From Escherichia phage Ptacy1532: DNA of 64,000 nucleotides. Positions within the stretch are counted from its first letter, which is position 1, and the number at the start of each line of letters is the position of its first letter. The stretch lies in sequence record PQ863255.1. The stretch is one strand, 5' to 3'. A program made the translations under genes and the position numbers. The notes under the pieces are model-generated. The model was not told the DNA's origin, did not search any database, and saw nothing but the letters and a program-made list of their open reading frames with translations. Below, in pieces: positions 48,718 to 57,850 of this stretch.

Positions 48718-48963
48718 TTACATTAGAGTTAAGATGATCTCTGCTTTGGCAAACTTCTCACCAACTTCAAGAGTGTCAGAAACAGGACGAGGTTCGCCTG
48801 TGCCTAAATTAACTGCTCTGCGATATCCACCAGATAGAGGCATCATCAAATAAATGACCTGACTGTCATCATCTTTTAAAGTAAAGATGTCAGCGATCGC
48901 TAGATCTTTAACAAAGAGTTTCTTTTCTTCTTCATGATGAACTTTGATATGTATTGTGCTCAT
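48718..48963 (-). CDS. small protein of the tandem ~80-aa paralog family
   Basis: Shares the family pattern (N-terminal MK/basic, L..L..G..F, central Y, C-terminal NL.TG) with nine neighbours. Confidence 0.5.
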   Translation of the reverse strand: MSTIHIKVHHEEEKKLFVKDLAIADIFTLKDDDSQVIYLMMPLSGGYRRAVNLGTGEPRPVSDTLEVGEKFAKAEIILTLM

Positions 48964-48965
48964 GC

Positions 48966-49217
48966 CTACTCCTGAACCACTGACATACGAATCATTTCTA
49001 CCTGATCATCAAGACCTTTAACAGATAATACACCTGTGGAAAGGTTTATCACAGGAACCCAGCCACTGGCTATGCGAATGTTACCAGAAGCATTTTCAAC
49101 CCTCATGTAATACTGAGGAGAAGCACTTCCGTTCTGAACTACGAAGGGGTTTCCGGGAATGATTGTTTCCAATCGTACCGTATTATCCTTTTTCTTAGGG
49201 ATGATTTTCATTAGCAA
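48966..49217 (-). CDS. small protein of the tandem ~80-aa paralog family
   Basis: Family pattern; INLSTGVLS motif. Confidence 0.5.
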   Translation of the reverse strand: MLMKIIPKKKDNTVRLETIIPGNPFVVQNGSASPQYYMRVENASGNIRIASGWVPVINLSTGVLSVKGLDDQVEMIRMSVVQE

Positions 49218-49459
49218 TCACTCACTAAAAGTTCTGCCGACACAGGAATAACTTGGCACCAGCTAGACGGTGCTGTTACGTTACCATCAGATAGACGGAG
49301 AGAGAGTACTCGATCAGAGTTAACGGTTACATTAGGACTTTCAGATACAGTCCCTTTGACATAGAGAGTAGCACTCTCGGGGAATTTAAACACTGCTCCG
49401 CTGGGAAGGGTGTTGAGATCAACCTTGGTCACTTCTTCTTTCTTGTGAGTAATCTTCAT
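49211..49459 (-). CDS. small protein of the tandem ~80-aa paralog family
   Basis: Family pattern; LNTLPSGAVF. Confidence 0.5.
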   Translation of the reverse strand: MKITHKKEEVTKVDLNTLPSGAVFKFPESATLYVKGTVSESPNVTVNSDRVLSLRLSDGNVTAPSSWCQVIPVSAELLVSDC

Positions 49460-49710
49460 TTAGAATCCTTAATAACGTTAGCTTCAACCTTAACAGGAAT
49501 AACAGAGATGCCCTCAACGGGGCCACTTAAGTGTCCATCTTCCAGTCTGACACACACGACTCGATCTCGTGCAACTTCTACCCAATTAGTAGATGCCGCA
49601 GTACAGACCATATGAATTGGACCGTTCTCTTCCAGCCGGAAGGTATCGCCCTTCTTCAGAGTGTGGAGTTTCACAGTCTTGATAGTTTTGTTCAATTCGT
49701 TAACTTTCAT
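49456..49710 (-). CDS. small protein of the tandem ~80-aa paralog family
   Basis: Family pattern; LHTLKKGDTF. Confidence 0.5.
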   Translation of the reverse strand: MKVNELNKTIKTVKLHTLKKGDTFRLEENGPIHMVCTAASTNWVEVARDRVVCVRLEDGHLSGPVEGISVIPVKVEANVIKDSK

Positions 49711-49718
49711 ATTGATTC

Positions 49719-50030
49719 CTATTTAAGTTTCAGGCTAATATTAAGGTGCATACATGCCCTGTTCTGTACAGCAGCATAGCTTCTACCGAGCATGTCAGCC
49801 ATTCTCTGAATAGGCATGAACCCAGCATTACGGATAAGGAACTGATCTTCTTCTTCAGACCACTTAACTCGGATTGAAGCTCTTGATATTCCGAACTTAG
49901 TGCAAGCTGTGTTAACAGCATTCTCCGTTACATTCATAATCTGAGCAACTTCTTTAACCGAGTACTCTTTGATTAATCTCCGAAGATTTTCAATCTGCAT
50001 CGGAGTCCATATAGTTCTTCGCGCTTTCAT
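49719..50030 (-). CDS. DNA-binding protein with two helix-turn-helix-like segments
   Basis: SVKEVAQIMNVTENAVNTAC and IQRMADMLGRSYAAVQNRA resemble tandem HTH units. Confidence 0.45.
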   Translation of the reverse strand: MKARRTIWTPMQIENLRRLIKEYSVKEVAQIMNVTENAVNTACTKFGISRASIRVKWSEEEDQFLIRNAGFMPIQRMADMLGRSYAAVQNRACMHLNISLKLK

Positions 50031-50510
50031 ATACCCTCCAATTAAAAAGAAGAAAACTATCAGGGGAGTACACTAGCTCTGGGCCACGCTGTAGACATCG
50101 GCCTACCTTCCACAGCTAATCAGCTAATGTACTCTCCTAATAGTTTATGAATAGGGGGAGGGGACGAATCCTCCCATATCCTATTAATTAATATTGCATG
50201 TAAGATCTAACAATCGGTTGCCTTTGTAGGAATAAGCGTTATGCTAATCCAGCACTAAACTCCCGCCCCCTTAGTGGGCTGGGTTATTAAAGGGTAACGC
50301 CCTTATGGGCTAGTTACGTGAATGTTAGTTTGATAGGAGATCTGAAGTCCTATCTCAAAGGACTCTCGTAAGAATCCTTCACGATATTACTTATTCAACT
50401 CTCGTCGGCTATCTCTCCAAGCCAACCAAGTGTAGATTTTCAACTCTTCAAAATCTTCTGGAGAGAATAGATATTCTTTGAAGGTGTCACCAAACCACTC
50501 TAAAAATTCT

Positions 50511-50711
50511 TCAGTCACAAATACCTCTTGCTTTATAGGTGGTACAGATTAATGTTGCATGTCTTTGGTTATACAGTTCGAAGTAATGAGGCTTGCTCCA
50601 GTCTCTGTCTCTGGTAAAGGATTGAAGAATGAAGTGCCTGTCACATCCAAGCCATTCAGAAACATCCATCGCTAGACGTATAGGAGAACCTCTGAATTCC
50701 CTCCGCTCCAT
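50511..50711 (-). CDS. hypothetical protein
   Basis: 66-aa ORF. Confidence 0.4.
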   Translation of the reverse strand: MERREFRGSPIRLAMDVSEWLGCDRHFILQSFTRDRDWSKPHYFELYNQRHATLICTTYKARGICD

Positions 50712-50722
50712 TTAAACCTCTC

Positions 50723-50896
50723 TTAGCAAGACTGGTCACAAGGTTGATCTCCGCATGTTTTACAGATCACTGGTGAGTAACTACAGGCAGGATACACTGA
50801 CACACCATCCCATGTCTCACACCCACAGTCAGGACATGTGCCGTTAGATTCCATGTCATCATCGTCGTCTATTTCACCGCCACCAAAACAACTCAT
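50723..50896 (-). CDS. small Cys-rich protein (57 aa; probable zinc-binding)
   Basis: ATG with strong AAGGAG RBS; multiple CxxC pairs (CPDCGC, CKTCGD, CDQSC). Confidence 0.4.
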   Translation of the reverse strand: MSCFGGGEIDDDDDMESNGTCPDCGCETWDGVSVYPACSYSPVICKTCGDQPCDQSC

Positions 50897-50905
50897 ACAG
50901 GCTCC

Positions 50906-51127
50906 TTAGTAAACTAAACCTATAGCCTTTGCATCGGGCTGAGGGACTACCTTTGCGCTAGGGCGATAGCCATCCACTGAACCATTCCAAAGGTTGACAC
51001 AGGTAATATACCCATCGTCTATGATGTCTGTTTTAATCCAGAAGTGTTTATCATGACCAAAGATACTTCCGTTTGGCAGCGTGGACAGTTCAGCGGTTTT
51101 AAGTGACTGCTTAGAGTCTAGTTTCAT
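50906..51127 (-). CDS. small protein of the tandem ~80-aa paralog family
   Basis: LSTLPNGSIFGHDKHFW ... NLWNGSVDGY; closest to 54173..54391. Confidence 0.5.
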   Translation of the reverse strand: MKLDSKQSLKTAELSTLPNGSIFGHDKHFWIKTDIIDDGYITCVNLWNGSVDGYRPSAKVVPQPDAKAIGLVY

Positions 51128-51134
51128 AATAACC

Positions 51135-51383
51135 TCAATTATCGTAGCATGTATTCCAATACATGTAGTTAACGCACGTTCTCGGTTTGATTCCGTACAT
51201 AATGAAGTGAGTCTTTTTAATCCTTTCCTTCAGCGTGTAATAAAGGCCATCACTGAAGTTACCAATCTTTACTTGGAAGCGTAAAGAGCGAGCATCCATT
51301 CGAAGCATAGAGATTAGCTGTACTCTGCTACCCCCAGCCATCTCTTCAAGAAGCTTCTTTGTATTCCAATAATGAGCTGTCAT
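51135..51383 (-). CDS. hypothetical protein
   Basis: 82-aa ORF. Confidence 0.45.
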   Translation of the reverse strand: MTAHYWNTKKLLEEMAGGSRVQLISMLRMDARSLRFQVKIGNFSDGLYYTLKERIKKTHFIMYGIKPRTCVNYMYWNTCYDN

Positions 51384-51384
51384 A

Positions 51385-51666
51385 TTACCACTCCTTACCG
51401 GTTGTTGTTACAGAACCGCCACACCATTGAGCATTGGATAAGGTTTTAGTCTCCTCATCTACTGCTGCACCGTTAAGACATGAGATACCACTGTAACGCA
51501 TATCAATTTCACCAGAAGGAACCTTCTCACCTTTATGCCAGCGAGAAACACAAACACCTTCCACTGCTACTGCACACCATCCATCAGGACGGCTCTGTAC
51601 ACAGCCTGTAAGGGTTATGCAGACAAGGAAGATACAGATTAAGGATATTACACCACCCCAACTCAT
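51385..51666 (-). CDS. lipoprotein (candidate superinfection-exclusion/host-envelope protein)
   Basis: Signal peptide with lipobox LTGC (ICIFLVCITLTGC). Confidence 0.5.
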   Translation of the reverse strand: MSWGGVISLICIFLVCITLTGCVQSRPDGWCAVAVEGVCVSRWHKGEKVPSGEIDMRYSGISCLNGAAVDEETKTLSNAQWCGGSVTTTGKEW

Positions 51667-51686
51667 AACTACCTCCTATTTGATGT

Positions 51687-51763
51687 GGTGCGCCCTACAG
51701 GACTCGAACCTGTAACCAATAGCTTAGAAGTAAAGTTTCTATCCTTGTAATGAAGTTTTCATT
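51687..51763 (-). pseudogene. tRNA-like 3' fragment (intact T-arm, acceptor 3' strand and CCA; no matching 5' acceptor strand)
   Basis: Minus strand ends ...ACAGGTTCGAGTCCTGTAGGGCGCACCA; contains CTTCTAAGCT like the tRNA-Arg anticodon region, but no GCGCCCT-type 5' strand found. Confidence 0.3.
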
Positions 51764-51764
51764 G

Positions 51765-51839
51765 TGGCGTTCCCTCGTGGAATCGAACCACGAATAAGAG
51801 CTTAGAAGGCTCCAGTTATATCCGTTTAACTAAGGGAAC
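51765..51839 (-). tRNA. tRNA-Arg (anticodon UCU)
   Basis: Cloverleaf folded by hand: acceptor GTTCCCT/AGGGAAC, D-stem GTTA/TAAC, anticodon stem GGAGC/GCTCT with loop CTTCTAA, T-arm CGTGG-TTCGATT-CCACG, encoded CCA. Confidence 0.8.
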
Positions 51840-51845
51840 ATTACA

Positions 51846-52196
51846 ATGAAAACTTGCACAACCTGTCACACCCAAAAGGAAGATTCAGATTTTTACAAGA
51901 AAGGAGATCGACTTCATTCTATGTGTAAACAATGCTTCAATGCCTACTGTATTGAACGTTGGAGACAAAGAAAGACTCAAGCGGTTAAAGATTTCGGAGG
52001 TAAATGTCATGACTGCAATCAAGAGTACCCAGATGCAGTCTTTGATTTCCACCACCTAGACCCTTCTGAAAAAGATTTTGATTGGAATAAACTAAGACTC
52101 CGATCTATTGACTCTATCAGAGAGGAGTTAAGCAAGTGCGTAATGCTCTGTGCTAACTGTCACCGTATTCGTCACATCGATTGCTCTATCCATTGA
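51846..52196 (+). CDS. HNH endonuclease (opposite-strand, free-standing; likely homing endonuclease)
   Basis: CxxC ... FHHLDP ... LCANCHRIRH; the only credible plus-strand gene inside the minus block, 7 nt from the tRNA-Arg 5' end. Confidence 0.6.
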   Translation: MKTCTTCHTQKEDSDFYKKGDRLHSMCKQCFNAYCIERWRQRKTQAVKDFGGKCHDCNQEYPDAVFDFHHLDPSEKDFDWNKLRLRSIDSIREELSKCVMLCANCHRIRHIDCSIH

Positions 52197-52209
52197 GCTA
52201 AGAGCGCGG

Positions 52210-52380
52210 AATTATTTAGATCATATCTCGCTTAGTGATATGACCACATGTTTTACATCGAAGTATGTAACGAGTTCCGGTACTTTCCAGTTTACCAAAC
52301 TCATTGTATGTATTTAAACTAACCGCTTTGATTGTCTCCCACTCATGGAGATGGAAGAGATATTTAAACCACTTGAACAT
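52210..52380 (-). CDS. small hypothetical protein (56 aa, CxxC-containing)
   Basis: ATG with GAGGTGG RBS 2 nt after the upstream stop. Confidence 0.3.
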
Positions 52381-52382
52381 AA

Positions 52383-52616
52383 TTATACCACCTCAACGAG
52401 AGATGTTTTCCACCCAAACAGAGGTCCATTATCATTAAGATAAACAGCCCCTCCAGTCTCGAATGGAGTTCCATAAGGGAGTGCCCAAGCATGCCCACGA
52501 ATTTCTGGCTTATGAGTAAACCCATACACTTCGCCGTTGCTATCAGTTGCTAAATATCTTATAGAGTTACCTATTTTAATAACTTCACCAAAATATTTAA
52601 CCTCTTTAGTCTTCAT
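52383..52616 (-). CDS. hypothetical protein, paralog of 52624..52875
   Basis: Track ORF trimmed to the ATG with GAGGT RBS; shares VI.I ... RY.A.D..G.V ... KP pattern with the neighbour. Confidence 0.45.
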   Translation of the reverse strand: MKTKEVKYFGEVIKIGNSIRYLATDSNGEVYGFTHKPEIRGHAWALPYGTPFETGGAVYLNDNGPLFGWKTSLVEVV

Positions 52617-52623
52617 CAGAACC

Positions 52624-52875
52624 TCAAGCACAAGCAGGGAGAGTAATGATTTTATACTGACCTTCAAACTCTCCAAATAAGCCCAAGAATGTAGGACTGT
52701 AAGTACCAGTGCAAACAAACTCATCAAACAATGCGTTATAGCTAGGCTTAATCTTCCAAGCCCATACATAACCCATCTTGTCAATTGCAATGTAACGAGT
52801 GTTCAGAGGAACAGTCATCATTACACCATCAACTTCGATTACTTTAGTTATTGGTGCAGCTTGAAAGTTTTTCAT
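52624..52875 (-). CDS. hypothetical protein, paralog of 52383..52616
   Basis: See paralog. Confidence 0.45.
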   Translation of the reverse strand: MKNFQAAPITKVIEVDGVMMTVPLNTRYIAIDKMGYVWAWKIKPSYNALFDEFVCTGTYSPTFLGLFGEFEGQYKIITLPACA

Positions 52876-53057
52876 ACTTTACCTTTAATGAAAATATCAT
52901 TACCACAGACACAGCATGAACGAACAACAGTAGCGCCACGCTGAACGATACGAACCTCTTCCTTAACCAGACTAATACGAGCACCGCAGCAAGGAGAATT
53001 GACATAAGAGTAACCAGCTTGCGTATGTTTGATTGTTTGCTTAGACATTTTATTCAA
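52872..53057 (-). CDS. small zinc-ribbon protein
   Basis: CCGARI ... CCVCGN. Confidence 0.4.
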   Translation of the reverse strand: MNKMSKQTIKHTQAGYSYVNSPCCGARISLVKEEVRIVQRGATVVRSCCVCGNDIFIKGKV

Positions 53058-53397
53058 GATCTCTTAGTTGTTCAGCCAATTGTTCACATTCGTTGACGCA
53101 GAACTCTTCTGTTCTTGGTACCCCGTTAGGGTTGAACCGTGTCTTGTCACACGCATGGGCACAATCAAATCCGACTGTATTTAAACCACCCATCTCTTCA
53201 AGAGAGTCCTGCCATGTAACACCACCATGAACATCAACATCACAAACACGTTCTTCCTTTCCGTTGTATCCTGTGAAGTTTTTATTGCTTAAACTATCTG
53301 GCAACTCCACATACCCACAAAAGTGGGAGTCGTTCATGTGCATAATCACAGCACGAAGACCTGATTTAGTTACCCAATCTTTAACCATGCGTCTCAT
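53050..53397 (-). CDS. hypothetical protein (Cys/His-containing)
   Basis: 115-aa ORF. Confidence 0.45.
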   Translation of the reverse strand: MRRMVKDWVTKSGLRAVIMHMNDSHFCGYVELPDSLSNKNFTGYNGKEERVCDVDVHGGVTWQDSLEEMGGLNTVGFDCAHACDKTRFNPNGVPRTEEFCVNECEQLAEQLRDLE

Positions 53398-53440
53398 ATA
53401 AGCACCTCTTGTTAGTTTAAGTAAGAGTTGTCCCTTAATT

Positions 53441-53470
53441 AAAACAACAAAGGCCGCCCGAAGGCAGCCT
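53441..53470 (-). terminator. Rho-independent terminator
   Basis: AGGCTGCC-TTCG-GGCGGCCT hairpin followed by TTGTTGTTTT on the minus strand, right after the stop of 53475..53726. Confidence 0.45.
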
Positions 53471-53474
53471 CTCT

Positions 53475-53726
53475 TTATTGACTAACACCACGAATCAGAT
53501 GATTCTGTAGCATTTCATCTTCTGCATTATATAGGAATGCAAACATCAACTCCTTAGCCACATCTCTTGAGCAATTAAGACACTTAGAGATTTGCGTTAG
53601 TTGCATGTTGCGTTCAGTGTGTTCCATCAAGGCAATGCGAATGATCTCTCGCATACCTATCACATGGGTTGTCTTAACCGGCATAGGTCCAATTGCCTTG
53701 CTTGTTACGAATGGCTGACATTGCAT
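53475..53726 (-). CDS. hypothetical protein (possible small DNA-binding protein; start uncertain)
   Basis: Track ORF; a 46-aa alternative ORF with better RBS overlaps its 5' end, so the true start may be the internal MREII. Confidence 0.4.
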   Translation of the reverse strand: MQCQPFVTSKAIGPMPVKTTHVIGMREIIRIALMEHTERNMQLTQISKCLNCSRDVAKELMFAFLYNAEDEMLQNHLIRGVSQ

Positions 53727-54054
53727 GAAGCCAGAAGCCTTCCAGTTTCAGAGCACCATTAGCTACTACATCCATACGTTCAGGGCGGTTCATACGTTTG
53801 GTTGATACTTTCATACATATCTCTCTTTGTTAGTGGAGGCATTATTGCCAGTTGATATAAGGGATAGCCCTAGTCAGGAGGCTAATTCTGACCGCGTACT
53901 CATTGCCGACCTTCTCTGCCTAAGAGTTCAGGTTCTAGAGCTATCTCTTATTCCAACTGGTGAAGACTCCCTACCCCTAGGAAGTCTCCTGAATCCCAAA
54001 CCAATACGTACCCCTACATATCGGAAAGTCTTTCGAAAATTAACAGGTTTTAGT

Positions 54055-54178
54055 CTAACACCGGATGTTCGAGCAAGCTCTCCCTAGCGGTGTGGCATAT
54101 GCCTGAATTAATAAGTTAATGAGGAACACCCTCACATAGCCCTCTGATAAACACAAGGGCTATAAGTCGATGTTACTT
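54055..54178 (-). promoter_or_regulatory. conserved intergenic element, copy B
   Basis: Same ordered blocks as copy A; stem TAGCCCT/AGGGCTA conserved while the loop differs. Confidence 0.35.
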
Positions 54179-54391
54179 TTGGGATAAACACAGATCAGGA
54201 CGTGGCATAACAGTGGTTGATAGACCGAAGACTTCAACAGAACCGCTGTTCAGATCGGCGGCCTTACACAAACCGTCAGGAGTTTTATCTTCTAACATCA
54301 GCCAGAAACGTCTATCGTAAGAGAAAACATCACCACCTTTAACATCTTCTGCATTTGAATATTTAGGATAATCAACTACTTTAATTTCCAT
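54173..54391 (-). CDS. small protein of the tandem ~80-aa paralog family
   Basis: VKGGDVFSYDRRFW ... DLNSGSVEVF. Confidence 0.5.
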   Translation of the reverse strand: MEIKVVDYPKYSNAEDVKGGDVFSYDRRFWLMLEDKTPDGLCKAADLNSGSVEVFGLSTTVMPRPDLCLSQK

Positions 54392-54401
54392 TTACTTACC
54401 T

Positions 54402-54620
54402 TTACTGATAGATGGAGAGGTGGATAAGTTTATTCACATAAGTGAAGTTAGGTAGGGTTTTCATCTCATTGTTGAAGACATTAAAACAACGAACCCCGCC
54501 CTCTACAGCATAAGCAGATTTCTGAAACAGACTACCTCCCCACACAAATACATCATGTGTTTCAAGAGATCGTAACTGAACAGCCTCGTCAACAACCTTC
54601 TTTTCAATGTTCATATTCAC
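54402..54620 (-). CDS. small protein of the tandem ~80-aa paralog family (divergent member)
   Basis: LRSLETHDVF ... weaker match to the family pattern. Confidence 0.45.
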   Translation of the reverse strand: MNMNIEKKVVDEAVQLRSLETHDVFVWGGSLFQKSAYAVEGGVRCFNVFNNEMKTLPNFTYVNKLIHLSIYQ

Positions 54621-54871
54621 TTCCGATTGGTAATTACTGCATCTGGGATAAGGATTACAGGAAGATTTGAATTAAGCTTCATAACCTGATTAGTTCTTAA
54701 ACCAAGCACAACTGTTCCAGAATCTTTCTTGTTCGACTCGGTTACATGTGGAGTGAATAAACTAACAACCAAATAATGATCGACGCGTGTAGATTTAACT
54801 TGGAATACATCTCCAAGCTTTAAATCACCCACTGTAAGATCTGGGTCTTTTAGTTCAAGATCAATCTTCAT
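54617..54871 (-). CDS. small protein of the tandem ~80-aa paralog family
   Basis: MKIDLELKDPDLTVGDLKLGDVFQV. Confidence 0.5.
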   Translation of the reverse strand: MKIDLELKDPDLTVGDLKLGDVFQVKSTRVDHYLVVSLFTPHVTESNKKDSGTVVLGLRTNQVMKLNSNLPVILIPDAVITNRK

Positions 54872-55107
54872 TCTTCCGCCTTGTTCGTGAGTCGGGCGTT
54901 GTGAACTTTCTTAACAACTTCATGGGTGAAACCATCAGAAATCACACCAGTAGAAAGGTTAATACATTTTCTCTGATCTCCTGATTTGTTATAAACACTT
55001 GAGGACATATAATAATCACTTGTGTTCAGAGGGAATTGAAAAACCTCCCCCGACTCTAAATCACCAAGACAGACAACCTTAGGGGTGTTGTTCATGTCAA
55101 TCTTCAT
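54868..55107 (-). CDS. small protein of the tandem ~80-aa paralog family
   Basis: MKIDMNNTPKVVCLGDLESGEVFQF ... CINLSTGVIS. Confidence 0.5.
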   Translation of the reverse strand: MKIDMNNTPKVVCLGDLESGEVFQFPLNTSDYYMSSSVYNKSGDQRKCINLSTGVISDGFTHEVVKKVHNARLTNKAEE

Positions 55108-55333
55108 CTTTAGCCTCTATGTTAGTTATGTGGAGATCACCTCGTACTTGGCAAACTTCATCCCGTTTAAAAGGCATAAGCTTTCCAGTTACCACATCAA
55201 CACAGTTGATATAATTATCTGCGTACAGGGTGTCGGTTCTAATGTAAAGAGAGTCTTTACGCTCAAATAGAACGCCCGGCTTCATGTTGTTTAAGCTAAG
55301 CATTGTACGATCGGATTTAATATTAACTTTCAC
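55097..55333 (-). CDS. small protein of the tandem ~80-aa paralog family (probable GTG start)
   Basis: Track ORF trimmed to GTG preceded by AGGAGA (7 nt); VKVNIKSD ... MKPGVLF ... CVDVVTGKL. Confidence 0.45.
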   Translation of the reverse strand: MKVNIKSDRTMLSLNNMKPGVLFERKDSLYIRTDTLYADNYINCVDVVTGKLMPFKRDEVCQVRGDLHITNIEAKDED

Positions 55334-55619: not shown

Positions 55620-55819
55620 ATCATTTTACCCTTTATCAGAGATTAAAAGTAATATTATTTAAGTAAGTTAAATTTAGTAAACTTATTTTCTAAGAAATTT
55701 TCAAAGGGTCTATATACAGAGCATTACCCATAGTCCCAGAATACTACCATCTTTTTCAATAAATTTACTAAGTGGTTGGTTTATAAAGGAATTTAGTTTG
55801 TCAAATCTGGCACTAGTGA

Positions 55820-56256: not shown

Positions 56257-56284
56257 ATAAAAAAGCCCCAGCCGTAGCCGGGGC
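56257..56284 (-). terminator. Rho-independent terminator (second of a tandem pair)
   Basis: GCCCCGGC-TACG-GCTGGGGC hairpin followed by TTTTTT on the minus strand. Confidence 0.4.
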
Positions 56285-56342
56285 AAACCTGAAAGCAACA
56301 CATGACCGTTGCTATAAATACACTCGCAAATGCACTTACAGC

Positions 56343-56369
56343 AACGCAAAAAGCCGCCCAAAGGCGGCT
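56343..56369 (-). terminator. Rho-independent terminator (first of a tandem pair)
   Basis: AGCCGCC-TTTG-GGCGGCT hairpin followed by TTTTTGCG on the minus strand. Confidence 0.45.
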
Positions 56370-56423
56370 ATGCGGAAGCTTCAAATGGGGAGAGTACGAC
56401 GCGACAGAAAGAGCGTCATAGTA

Positions 56424-57811: not shown

Positions 57812-57850
57812 TGATAAAAGAAAAGGCGCTACCCGTTAAGGTAGCGCCTT
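57812..57850 (-). terminator. Rho-independent terminator
   Basis: 11-bp stem AAGGCGCTACC/GGTAGCGCCTT with 6-nt loop, followed by TTTTCTTTTAT on the minus strand. Confidence 0.55.

What the first reader, a model, noticed from the sequence alone, without database searches (positions are those of the whole stretch)
48718..55333. Tandem arrays of at least ten paralogous ~80-aa proteins in the early region
Four consecutive genes at 48718-49710, one at 50906-51127 and five at 54173-55333 encode 72-84-aa proteins sharing an ordered pattern (basic N-terminus, L..L..G..F, central aromatic, NL.TG/S near the C-terminus) with otherwise high divergence. Such expanded, fast-diverging small-protein families in phage early regions are typical of host-takeover or anti-defence functions. 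I do not recognise the family.
Basis: seen in the sequence. Interest (0 to 1): 0.7.

Follow-up and report, generated by a model that had tools for sequence, protein, structure and literature searches.

The report
Ten-copy small beta-barrel early-gene family
A phiEco32-like coliphage carries ten diverged copies of one small beta-barrel protein in its early genes; the family is real, is found in many other phages, has no known function, and most likely acts as a set of non-enzymatic binding proteins.

Summary
The window is a Kuravirus (phiEco32-like podovirus). The ten minus-strand ORFs at 48718-49710, 50906-51127 and 54173-55333 are true paralogues. With each member and its close relatives left out of the profile, every one is recovered at E 1e-7 to 3e-17 among 820 window ORFs; the best unrelated ORF has E=3. 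There is no eleventh member in the window. Two AlphaFold models (pLDDT 83 and 90) give the same six-stranded SH3-like barrel. Orthologues in eight related phages are under purifying selection (dN/dS 0.04-0.25, the same range as neighbouring genes), so these are real genes. Diversity comes from copy-number change (6-11 per genome), one pseudogene and swaps between deeply diverged alleles, not from fast drift. The family reaches far beyond this phage group. It has about 2,100 clusters at 50% identity and includes N4 gp21, LUZ24 gp7, PaP3 ORF.65, repeats inside giant phage proteins and C-terminal repeats of Bacteroidota SprT-like proteases. It matches no Pfam, NCBIfam or PDB entry and only unknown-function PHROGs. 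Function is inferred: a rigid, mostly acidic scaffold with variable loops and no conserved polar residue points to protein-binding modulators of host or defence factors. LUZ24 gp7 was not toxic to its host.

The parts
48718..48963 (-). m1, 81 aa; the most divergent member (phrog_12612)
   Evidence: Leave-out profile E 1.4e-7. AlphaFold model pLDDT 90.4, SH3-like barrel. Orthologue dN/dS 0.10-0.25.
48966..49217 (-). m2, 83 aa from the TTG at 49217; more likely 81 aa from the ATG at 49211
   Evidence: Leave-out E 4e-14. Orthologues start MKIIPKK. dN/dS 0.05-0.11.
49211..49459 (-). m3, 82 aa; closest paralogue of its neighbour m4
   Evidence: BLASTP against m4 gives 1.5e-13. Leave-out E 5.7e-12. 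The orthologue in WFI101126 is split by a frameshift.
49456..49710 (-). m4, 84 aa; long hairpin insert; a variable slot
   Evidence: Leave-out E 1e-15. In phiEco32, ES17 and NJ01 the best match to m4 is only 29-30% identical; phiEco32 and ES17 carry a different cluster (x2) at this slot and NJ01 has no member there.
50906..51127 (-). m5, 73 aa; isolated copy between the two arrays
   Evidence: Leave-out E 3.4e-16. BLASTP against m6 gives 8e-9. dN/dS 0.04-0.15.
54173..54391 (-). m6, 72 aa; the promoter-distal (last-transcribed) gene of the upstream five-gene array
   Evidence: Leave-out E 3.6e-13. A 48%-identical alternative allele sits in WFI101126 and Ptacy1479.
54402..54620 (-). m7, 72 aa from the GTG; more likely 70 aa from the ATG at 54614; a rare cassette
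   Evidence: Leave-out E 4.4e-8. Among the eight compared phages it is present only in NJ01.
54617..54871 (-). m8, 84 aa; long hairpin insert
   Evidence: Leave-out E 6e-12. BLASTP against m9 gives 2e-6. Alleles fall into 88-95% and 64-67% identity groups.
54868..55107 (-). m9, 79 aa; the best-connected member; a variable cassette
   Evidence: Leave-out E 2.6e-17. AlphaFold model pLDDT 83. Present in Ptacy1479 and NJ01 only; elsewhere the best match is 33-41% identical.
55097..55333 (-). m10, 78 aa with a GTG start; the first-transcribed gene of the five-gene array
   Evidence: Leave-out E 1.9e-13. The 78-aa orthologues begin MKVNIKSD. dN/dS 0.04-0.17.

Best explanation
Shown:
- The ten genes are old paralogues of one small domain of 70-85 aa. 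The domain folds into a six-stranded SH3-like beta-barrel.
- They lie in the early, leftward-transcribed region of a phiEco32-like phage.
- They are kept as coding genes by purifying selection.
- Their number and identity differ between near-identical phages, through tandem duplication, loss and replacement of whole cassettes.

Inferred mechanism:
- Each copy is a non-enzymatic binding module. A conserved hydrophobic core and two Gly turns hold the barrel. The variable-length hairpin and neighbouring loops form the specificity surface.
- Made early in infection, the set binds and modulates different cell proteins.
- The most likely targets are non-essential host factors such as anti-phage defence or stress proteins, not the core machinery.
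- A phage that carries many versions, and swaps them by recombination, covers more host strains.
For: Family and fold:
- Two independent AlphaFold models (pLDDT 83 and 90.4) have the same strand order.

Not an enzyme:
- The best-conserved columns across 130 diverse members are M1, I3, L17, G20, F23, Y33, M34, V49, L51, G54 and V65.
- All of these are hydrophobic or Gly. No polar residue is conserved.

Variable surface:
- The hairpin segment is 10-27 residues long across the family and 11-21 residues in the window's ten members.
- Within orthologue groups, changes cluster in the N-terminal linker, the loop after the GDVF strand, the hairpin tip and the segment after NLxTG. The core motifs do not change.

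Mostly acidic:
- The median pI of the 130 members is 5.3 and 75% are below 6.5.
- The window members have net charges of -3 to +2.
- This fits protein binding better than nucleic-acid binding.

Early expression: literature on SU10, YF01 and phiEco32/7-11. Tight operon packing is seen.

Accessory-like dynamics:
- There are 6-11 copies per genome across three genera of Gordonclarkvirinae, and 2-4 in Salmonella phage 7-11.
- One member is a frameshifted pseudogene in the 96.8%-identical phage WFI101126.
- Slots alternate between cassettes (m4/x2, m6/x4) or gain and lose them (m7, m9, x1).

Not a shutoff toxin: LUZ24 gp7 is a family member (E 1e-12). It did not inhibit growth of P. aeruginosa PAO1 when expressed from a single copy (PMC4635203).

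The domain is used as a module elsewhere: tandem two-domain proteins, repeats in giant phage proteins, and 1-5 copies attached to SprT-like proteases.
Against: - There is no direct evidence of binding or of any target.
- Gene-wide dN/dS is as low as in neighbouring genes, so these pairwise estimates show no arms-race signal.
- Six of the ten (m1, m2, m3, m5, m8, m10) are present in nearly all Kuraviruses compared. This could mean conserved roles in the phage's own cycle and not strain-specific counter-defence.
- The nearest structural neighbours are RNA- or ribosome-associated barrels such as ribosomal L2 and EF-P.
- The Bacteroidota SprT-linked repeats are basic (pI 9.7), so the fold can probably bind nucleic acid.
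- The LUZ24 result concerns a distant homologue in another host.
- Other genomic contexts were uninformative.
Confidence: 0.4

Rival explanations
1. They are nucleic-acid or ribosome binders. In this reading the small barrels act like KOW, L2 or EF-P-type domains and tune translation, RNA stability or transcription of host or phage messages early in infection.
Confidence: 0.2
2. They serve the phage's own programme. In this reading they are adaptor or chaperone subunits that bind phage replication, transcription or assembly proteins, and the paralogues are specialised for different phage partners.
For: A backbone of six members is kept across Kuravirus and mostly in EP335. The family is retained in other genera and in 7-11, with strong purifying selection. 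LUZ24 gp7 had no effect on the host when expressed alone.
Against: Copy number and identity vary between phages whose replication and structural genes are nearly identical. One member is a pseudogene in a viable isolate. Single-copy members occur in unrelated phages (N4, LUZ24/PaP3) that share few partner proteins.
Confidence: 0.15
3. They are antitoxin-like neutralisers. In this reading each barrel plugs a different host toxin or abortive-infection effector, as the SH3-like antitoxin VapX blocks VapD.
Against: The similarity is no better than to dozens of other SH3-like barrels. There is no sequence relationship, and no toxin partner gene lies beside any member. This is a special case of the best explanation and has no evidence of its own.
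Confidence: 0.1
4. They are decaying duplicates or selfish filler ORFs with no current function.
For: There is one frameshifted copy in WFI101126 and presence/absence variation between phages.
Against: dN/dS is 0.04-0.25 for all ten. Reading frames are intact across genera. Shine-Dalgarno sites and coupled start/stop codons are present. AlphaFold models are confident. The family has about 2,100 clusters.
Confidence: 0.03

Closest known systems
N4 gp21, LUZ24 gp7 and PaP3 ORF.65 (uncharacterised small phage proteins)
   Same: Same sequence family: the family profile scores N4 gp21 at 58.9 bits, LUZ24 gp7 at E 1e-12 and PaP3 ORF.65 at E 4e-9. Foldseek also matches m9 to N4 gp21 and PaP3 ORF.65. 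Same size and the same MKI...GxxF...NLxTG pattern. The LUZ24 and PaP3 genes are early; N4 gp21 sits among non-structural genes at the left end of the genome.
   Different: These phages carry single copies. The window has ten, in two tandem arrays plus one isolated gene. None has a known function; LUZ24 gp7 is known only to be non-inhibitory to its host.
SH3-like barrels of translation proteins (ribosomal L2 C-domain, EF-P/eIF5A domain I, KOW) and other SH3-like small barrels (DtxR C-domain, FeoA, Tudor, CarD, VapX, HspQ)
   Different: No sequence or profile relationship. There is no KOW or KPGKG motif. The proteins are mostly acidic, stand alone and are encoded by phages.
Blocks of small early 'host-takeover' genes in lytic phages (for example the LUZ24 early ORFans studied in PMC4635203; SPO1, T4 and T7 early genes from general knowledge)
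   Same: Position at the promoter-proximal end of the early transcript, small size, unknown function and variability between relatives.
   Different: Those blocks are mostly sets of unrelated proteins. Here one fold has been multiplied ten-fold and the copies are exchanged as cassettes.
PHROGs 6570, 7832, 7431, 8365, 16423, 9955, 12612 and 33163
   Same: The ten proteins and 119 of 130 wider relatives match these models.
   Different: PHROGs splits the family into eight or more separate groups, all labelled 'unknown function'. No Pfam or NCBIfam model unites them.
Bacteroidota SprT-like domain proteins with C-terminal repeats
   Same: Their 1-5 C-terminal repeats match the same profile, with per-domain E down to 4e-9.
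   Different: They are chromosomal, fused to a metalloprotease domain and basic (pI 9.7). They are probably a cellular use of the same module for substrate or DNA binding.

Membership tests
   All ten score E 2.6e-17 to 1.4e-7 against 820 window ORFs; the best unrelated ORF scores E=3. With only the nine-member profile, m7 is weak (0.64) but still ranks first.
The paralogous family itself | Shared three-dimensional fold in the best-connected and the most divergent member | tested here: met
The paralogous family itself | Conserved as coding in related genomes | tested here: met
   dN/dS is 0.04-0.25 where dS is 0.1-0.9, the same as 11 control genes. The one exception is the m3 orthologue, which is frameshifted in WFI101126.
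PHROG unknown-function groups 6570/7832/7431/8365/16423/9955/12612/33163 | HMM match at E<=0.01 | tested here: met
   Best E values range from 8.5e-9 to 5e-51. phrog_6570 matches 7 of the 10.
Any Pfam-A or NCBIfam family | HMM match at or near the curated cut-off | tested here: not met
   The ten members gave only three single-member chance-level hits (E 0.13-0.18) at the E<=1 limit. For the 130 members the best recurring hit is EFP_N, in 3 members at E 0.017. NCBIfam gave nothing.
EF-P / KOW-type translation SH3-like domains | SH3-like barrel fold | tested here: met
EF-P / KOW-type translation SH3-like domains | Sequence-profile relationship and the functional loop motif (KPGKG in EF-P; the Gly-Lys KOW motif) | tested here: not met
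   hhalign probability is 0.4%. No such motif appears in the column table.
VapX-type antitoxins | An adjacent cognate toxin gene (VapD-like) and a specific sequence family | tested here: not met
Known anti-defence proteins | Sequence match to a described anti-defence family | tested here: inconclusive
   There is no annotated PHROG or Pfam match. No dedicated anti-defence library was available.
Known anti-defence proteins | Demonstrated protection of a phage from a defence system | not testable with these tools
   A functional assay is needed; nothing available here can substitute for it.

The most novel reading that the evidence does not exclude
The arrays are a phage-borne repertoire of one stable barrel scaffold with interchangeable loop surfaces. 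On this reading they form a library of inhibitors in which each copy disables a different host immunity or stress protein. Cassettes would be shuffled between co-infecting Kuraviruses through the near-invariant non-coding segments that flank the arrays. The same module would have been recruited into giant phage proteins and into cellular SprT-like proteases as a target-recognition domain. It would then be a large, unnamed family of counter-defence binders comparable in reach to known anti-defence families.
Probability: 0.2. Interest if true: 0.8.

Novelty: new variant of a known kind. Interest (0 to 1): 0.55.

Why it matters
Ten genes of one fold are a large share of the unknown early genes of the phiEco32-like phages, a group that is being isolated widely as E. 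coli phages (115 matching GenBank records). Three points make this useful.

- **One family in place of many orphans.** Dozens of separate 'hypothetical proteins', split over eight or more PHROGs, become a single domain family of about 2,100 clusters. That family links model phages (N4, LUZ24, PaP3, 7-11), giant phage proteins and bacterial SprT-like proteases.
- **A ready-made comparison.** Near-identical phages differ in which cassettes they carry. This can be tested against host range and defence-system panels.
- **A possible new source of inhibitors.** If the proteins are binders of host factors, the family offers many natural inhibitors built on one small, stable scaffold.

Tried and rejected
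- **Family libraries.** Pfam, NCBIfam and PDB sequence searches gave nothing.
- **Searches that could not run.** The AlphaFold-database fold library was not available.
- **BLAST across genera.** tblastn with distant members found almost nothing outside the query's own phage group: P0135 had no hit, P0137 hit only phiEco32-like Escherichia phages at 31-38% identity, and N4 gp21 hit only N4-like phages plus three marginal hits. The family is too divergent for BLAST, so profile scans of fetched genomes were used.
- **Plasmid leading-region idea.** P0133 sits near DUF932, DUF4313, cREC_REC and a reverse transcriptase. PHROG scans of its neighbours were uninformative and there was no plasmid hit, so the idea is not supported.
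- **Giant-protein hits.**
  - P0122 (cadherin repeats), P0140 and P0167 are sums of many weak repeat matches and are probably spurious.
  - P0132 and P0136 each have a domain of 24-25 bits with the full motif, and P0147 and P0150 one of 18-21 bits; these look real. P0125 has only several 11-13-bit domains and is less certain.
- **Literature.** No searchable paper describes the paralogy. The original phiEco32 genome and transcription papers are not held in the library, so I cannot exclude that they mention it.
- **Gene-wide positive selection.** Pairwise estimates do not show it. Site-level tests were not run.


Full report
**What the window is.** The 8-kb stretch around the finding matches 115 phage records. 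The best is Escherichia phage vB_EcoP_WFI101126 (96.8% identity), followed by many other phiEco32-like podoviruses of the genus Kuravirus, subfamily Gordonclarkvirinae. From about 16 kb onward the genes are on the minus strand (GC skew; ORFs). The region of the finding lies in the block the literature calls early:
- SU10 CDS 69-125 are early (PMC4281155).
- YF01 gp82-122 are early (PMC9965538).
[quoted passage not shown] It is the most diverse part of the genome and is thought to act in host takeover (PMC8948821).
- The WFI101126 annotation equates the m4 and m5 orthologues with SU10_098 and SU10_0102.

**Checking the observation.** I call them m1 to m10 from left to right.
- BLASTP links m3-m4 (1.5e-13), m5-m6 (8e-9), m8-m9 (2e-6) and m10-m5 (3e-6). 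Weaker links tie in m1, m2 and m7.
- A leave-one-out profile from the other nine always ranks the omitted member first among all 820 ORFs of 35 aa or more in the window. m1 (0.004) and m7 (0.64) are weak in this test.
- With the wider family alignment, and with each member and everything at least 35% identical to it removed, all ten become significant (2.6e-17 to 1.4e-7). The best unrelated ORF scores E=3.
- Independent PHROG models cross-match several members each.
- The profile finds exactly ten members in the 64 kb.
- Orthologues suggest slightly shorter forms of m2 (ATG at 49211) and m7 (ATG at 54614) and confirm the GTG at 55333 for m10.
- The genes are packed with 1-11 nt overlaps and mostly have Shine-Dalgarno-like sequences. 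This fits co-translation from one transcript.

**Are they real genes?** I compared each with its best counterpart in eight related phages: WFI101126, phiEco32, Ptacy1479, NJ01, ES17, Paul, EP335 and ECBP2.
- Where synonymous divergence is informative (dS 0.1-0.9), Nei-Gojobori dN/dS is 0.04-0.25 for the family.
- Eleven neighbouring control genes give mostly 0.01-0.26.
- The family is therefore under ordinary purifying selection.

**How the diversity arises.** The protein identities are bimodal:
- m4 is 94-100% identical in three phages, but in phiEco32, ES17 and NJ01 its best match is only 29-30% identical.
- m6 is 89-99% identical in most phages, against 48% in WFI101126 and Ptacy1479.
- m9 is 80-95% identical in two phages and 37-41% elsewhere.
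- m5 is 41% identical in Ptacy1479.

Clustering all members at 55% identity gives a cassette map.
- The backbone m10-m8-m5-m3-m2-m1 is nearly universal in Kuravirus.
- m9, m7, m6/x4, m4/x2 and an extra x1 upstream of m10 come and go.
- Profile counts are 10 (window, Ptacy1479), 9-10 (NJ01), 8-9 (phiEco32, ES17), 8 (Paul), 8 plus a frameshifted m3 orthologue (WFI101126), 11 (EP335, Nieuwekanaalvirus) and 6 (ECBP2, Suseptimavirus).
- Salmonella phage 7-11 has two clear members and two marginal ones.
- The adjacent pairs m3/m4 and m8/m9 are each other's closest paralogues at 33-36% identity, which points to old tandem duplication.

So 'fast-diverging' is better described as old paralogues plus gain, loss and allele replacement.

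**Fold.**
- AlphaFold2 on m9 with 35 aligned sequences gives pLDDT 83 and pTM 0.69.
- On m1, the most divergent member, with 77 sequences it gives pLDDT 90.4 and pTM 0.78.
- Both are six-stranded all-beta barrels with the same strand order.
- This defines the fold class, not a function.
- A Foldseek search of viral models returns only uncharacterised phage proteins. They include N4 Gp21, PaP3 ORF.65 and proteins of Serratia, Morganella, Erwinia, Vibrio, Xylella and Pseudomonas phages.

**Extent of the family.**
- An exhaustive profile search of 1.84 billion cluster representatives finds 2,122 proteins at E<=0.001.
- Most are 66-87 aa stand-alone proteins that begin MKI/MKV. About fifteen are tandem two-domain proteins of 140-184 aa.
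- Profile scans of fetched genomes confirm N4 gp21 (58.9 bits), LUZ24 gp7 (E 1e-12) and PaP3 ORF.65 (E 4e-9) as single-copy members.
- Several giant proteins of 1,900-3,200 aa on phage-like contigs contain multiple diverged copies, for example P0132 on a 123-kb contig and P0136. Other 'giant' hits (P0122, P0140, P0167) look like summed noise.
- Chromosomal SprT-like proteins of Bacteroidota (Tenacibaculum and others) carry one to five C-terminal copies.
- No Pfam, NCBIfam or PDB sequence match exists.
- PHROGs splits the family into at least eight groups, all of unknown function.
- In the few other contexts I fetched the gene is single or paired. The 6-11-fold expansion appears to be a feature of Gordonclarkvirinae, though that sample is small.

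**What the sequence says about mechanism.**
- Across 130 diverse members the strongly conserved columns are M1, I3, L17, G20, F23, Y33, M34, V49, L51, G54 and V65. These are core hydrophobics and two turn glycines. No conserved Asp, Glu, His, Lys, Arg, Cys or Ser could form an active site.
- The segment containing the central hairpin varies from 10 to 27 residues across the family, and from 11 to 21 residues in the window's ten members.
- Within orthologue groups, substitutions pile up in the N-terminal linker, the loop after the GDVF strand, the hairpin tip and the stretch after NLxTG. The core motifs stay fixed.
- The proteins are mostly acidic or neutral: median pI is 5.3 and the window members have net charges of -3 to +2.
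- Together this is the signature of a rigid scaffold with variable binding loops. It points to proteins, not nucleic acids, as partners. This step is inference.

**The one experimental datum.** Wagemans et al. expressed 13 LUZ24 early proteins from a single copy in P. aeruginosa PAO1. Gp7 (YP_001671880, 77 aa) was among them. Only gp4, gp6, gp9 and gp11 inhibited growth (PMC4635203). A family member is therefore not a general shutoff toxin, at least in that host. This fits a target that is dispensable for growth, such as a defence or stress factor, but it does not show one.

**Best explanation and rivals.**
- I rate 'early-expressed, non-enzymatic protein-binding modules whose paralogues address different cell targets, probably including defence factors' at about 0.4.
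- The main rival is nucleic-acid or ribosome binding (0.2). The L2/EF-P-like neighbours and the basic SprT-linked repeats support it. The acidity, the lack of conserved basic residues and the failed profile comparison with EF-P (probability 0.4%) count against it.
- A role as adaptors for the phage's own proteins (0.15) would explain the conserved six-gene backbone, but not the cassette turnover between otherwise near-identical phages.
- Antitoxin-like neutralisation (0.1) is a special case with only fold-level support.
- Non-functional duplicates (0.03) are close to excluded by dN/dS.

**Novelty.**
- I found no paper that describes this paralogy. However, the two primary phiEco32 papers are not in the library.
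- The proteins are in databases as unrelated 'hypothetical proteins'.
- What is new here is the unification into one SH3-like domain family, its ten-fold expansion with cassette exchange in phiEco32-like phages, and its links to N4 gp21, LUZ24 gp7, giant phage proteins and SprT-like proteases.
- The kind of thing (small, variable early phage proteins) is familiar. I therefore class it as a new variant of a known kind and score interest at 0.55.

**Seen in passing.**
- Three non-coding gaps next to the arrays are far more conserved than the family genes themselves: 93-100% identical across Kuravirus, with 100%-identical blocks even in ECBP2.
- Two of them fold much better than shuffled controls (z -3.2 and -4.8). 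They have no Rfam match.
- They may be regulatory regions, structured RNAs or recombination anchors for cassette exchange. I did not resolve this.

Noticed in passing
window 50031-50386 (core 50150-50386), minus strand: A non-coding gap between the regulator-like gene (49719-50030) and the next small ORF. It is 97-99% identical across six Kuraviruses and EP335, and has 100%-identical blocks even in ECBP2 (77% overall). The predicted RNA fold has MFE -123.7 kcal/mol, z -4.79, with 0 of 100 shuffles as stable. The consensus has several hairpins and 4 pairs with compensatory changes. No Rfam match. It could be a structured RNA or a dense regulatory region.
   Followed up: partly
window 53815-54172, minus strand: A 358-nt non-coding gap directly downstream of m6 (the end of the five-gene array). 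It is 93-99% identical in Kuravirus, 95% in EP335 and 84% in ECBP2, which is far more conserved than the adjacent family genes. RNA fold z is -3.17. It begins with a strong hairpin (AUAGCCCUU...AGGGCUAU). It may be a recombination anchor for cassette exchange or a non-coding RNA.
   Followed up: partly
window 55620-55819, minus strand: An AT-rich 200-nt gap upstream of the 98-aa gene that precedes m10. It is 99-100% identical in all Kuraviruses compared and 77% in the other two genera. It has no predicted structure (z +0.6). It is possibly a promoter or regulatory region. Together with the gap at 53815-54172 it brackets the variable array.
   Followed up: partly
window 51846-52196 (+ strand) and 51765-51839 (- strand): A 116-aa Cys/His-rich HNH-type endonuclease ORF lies on the strand opposite to all its neighbours, directly beside tRNA-Arg(tct). 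Ptacy1479 has an HNH gene at the same place, Paul has a different one on the other strand, and phiEco32 and WFI101126 have none. It looks like a mobile homing-endonuclease insertion.
   Followed up: no
window 56257-56386 and 57823-57850, minus strand: Strong terminator-like hairpins sit at 56369-56352, 56284-56265 and 57850-57823, upstream of the arrays in the direction of transcription. Another sits at 53472-53449, downstream of array 2. WFI101126 has terminators annotated at the matching positions. Early transcription must read through or restart to reach the family genes. A sub-threshold MicX-like Rfam hit (26.9 bits against a cut-off of 75) covers the 56.3-kb pair and is probably just the hairpins.
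   Followed up: no
L001 4215-4458 (WFI101126, orthologue of m3): The m3 orthologue in the closest relative (96.8% DNA identity) is split into two frames. GenBank annotates only a 56-aa stub. This is evidence that single family members are dispensable.
   Followed up: yes
L005 10001-11437 (Tenacibaculum MAG) and related proteins P0292-P0304: Bacteroidota chromosomal SprT-like metalloproteases carry one to five C-terminal repeats of the same barrel domain. The repeats are basic (pI 9.7). The gene sits among housekeeping genes and not in a mobile element.
   Followed up: partly
L022 10001-18004 and L023 10001-15763 (metagenomic phage-like contigs): Proteins of 2,667 aa and 1,920 aa, rich in Gly, Ala, Pro and Lys and with no Pfam match, contain several diverged copies of the domain. 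They are encoded among small phage ORFs, on contigs of 123 kb and 26 kb. Their function is unknown.
   Followed up: partly
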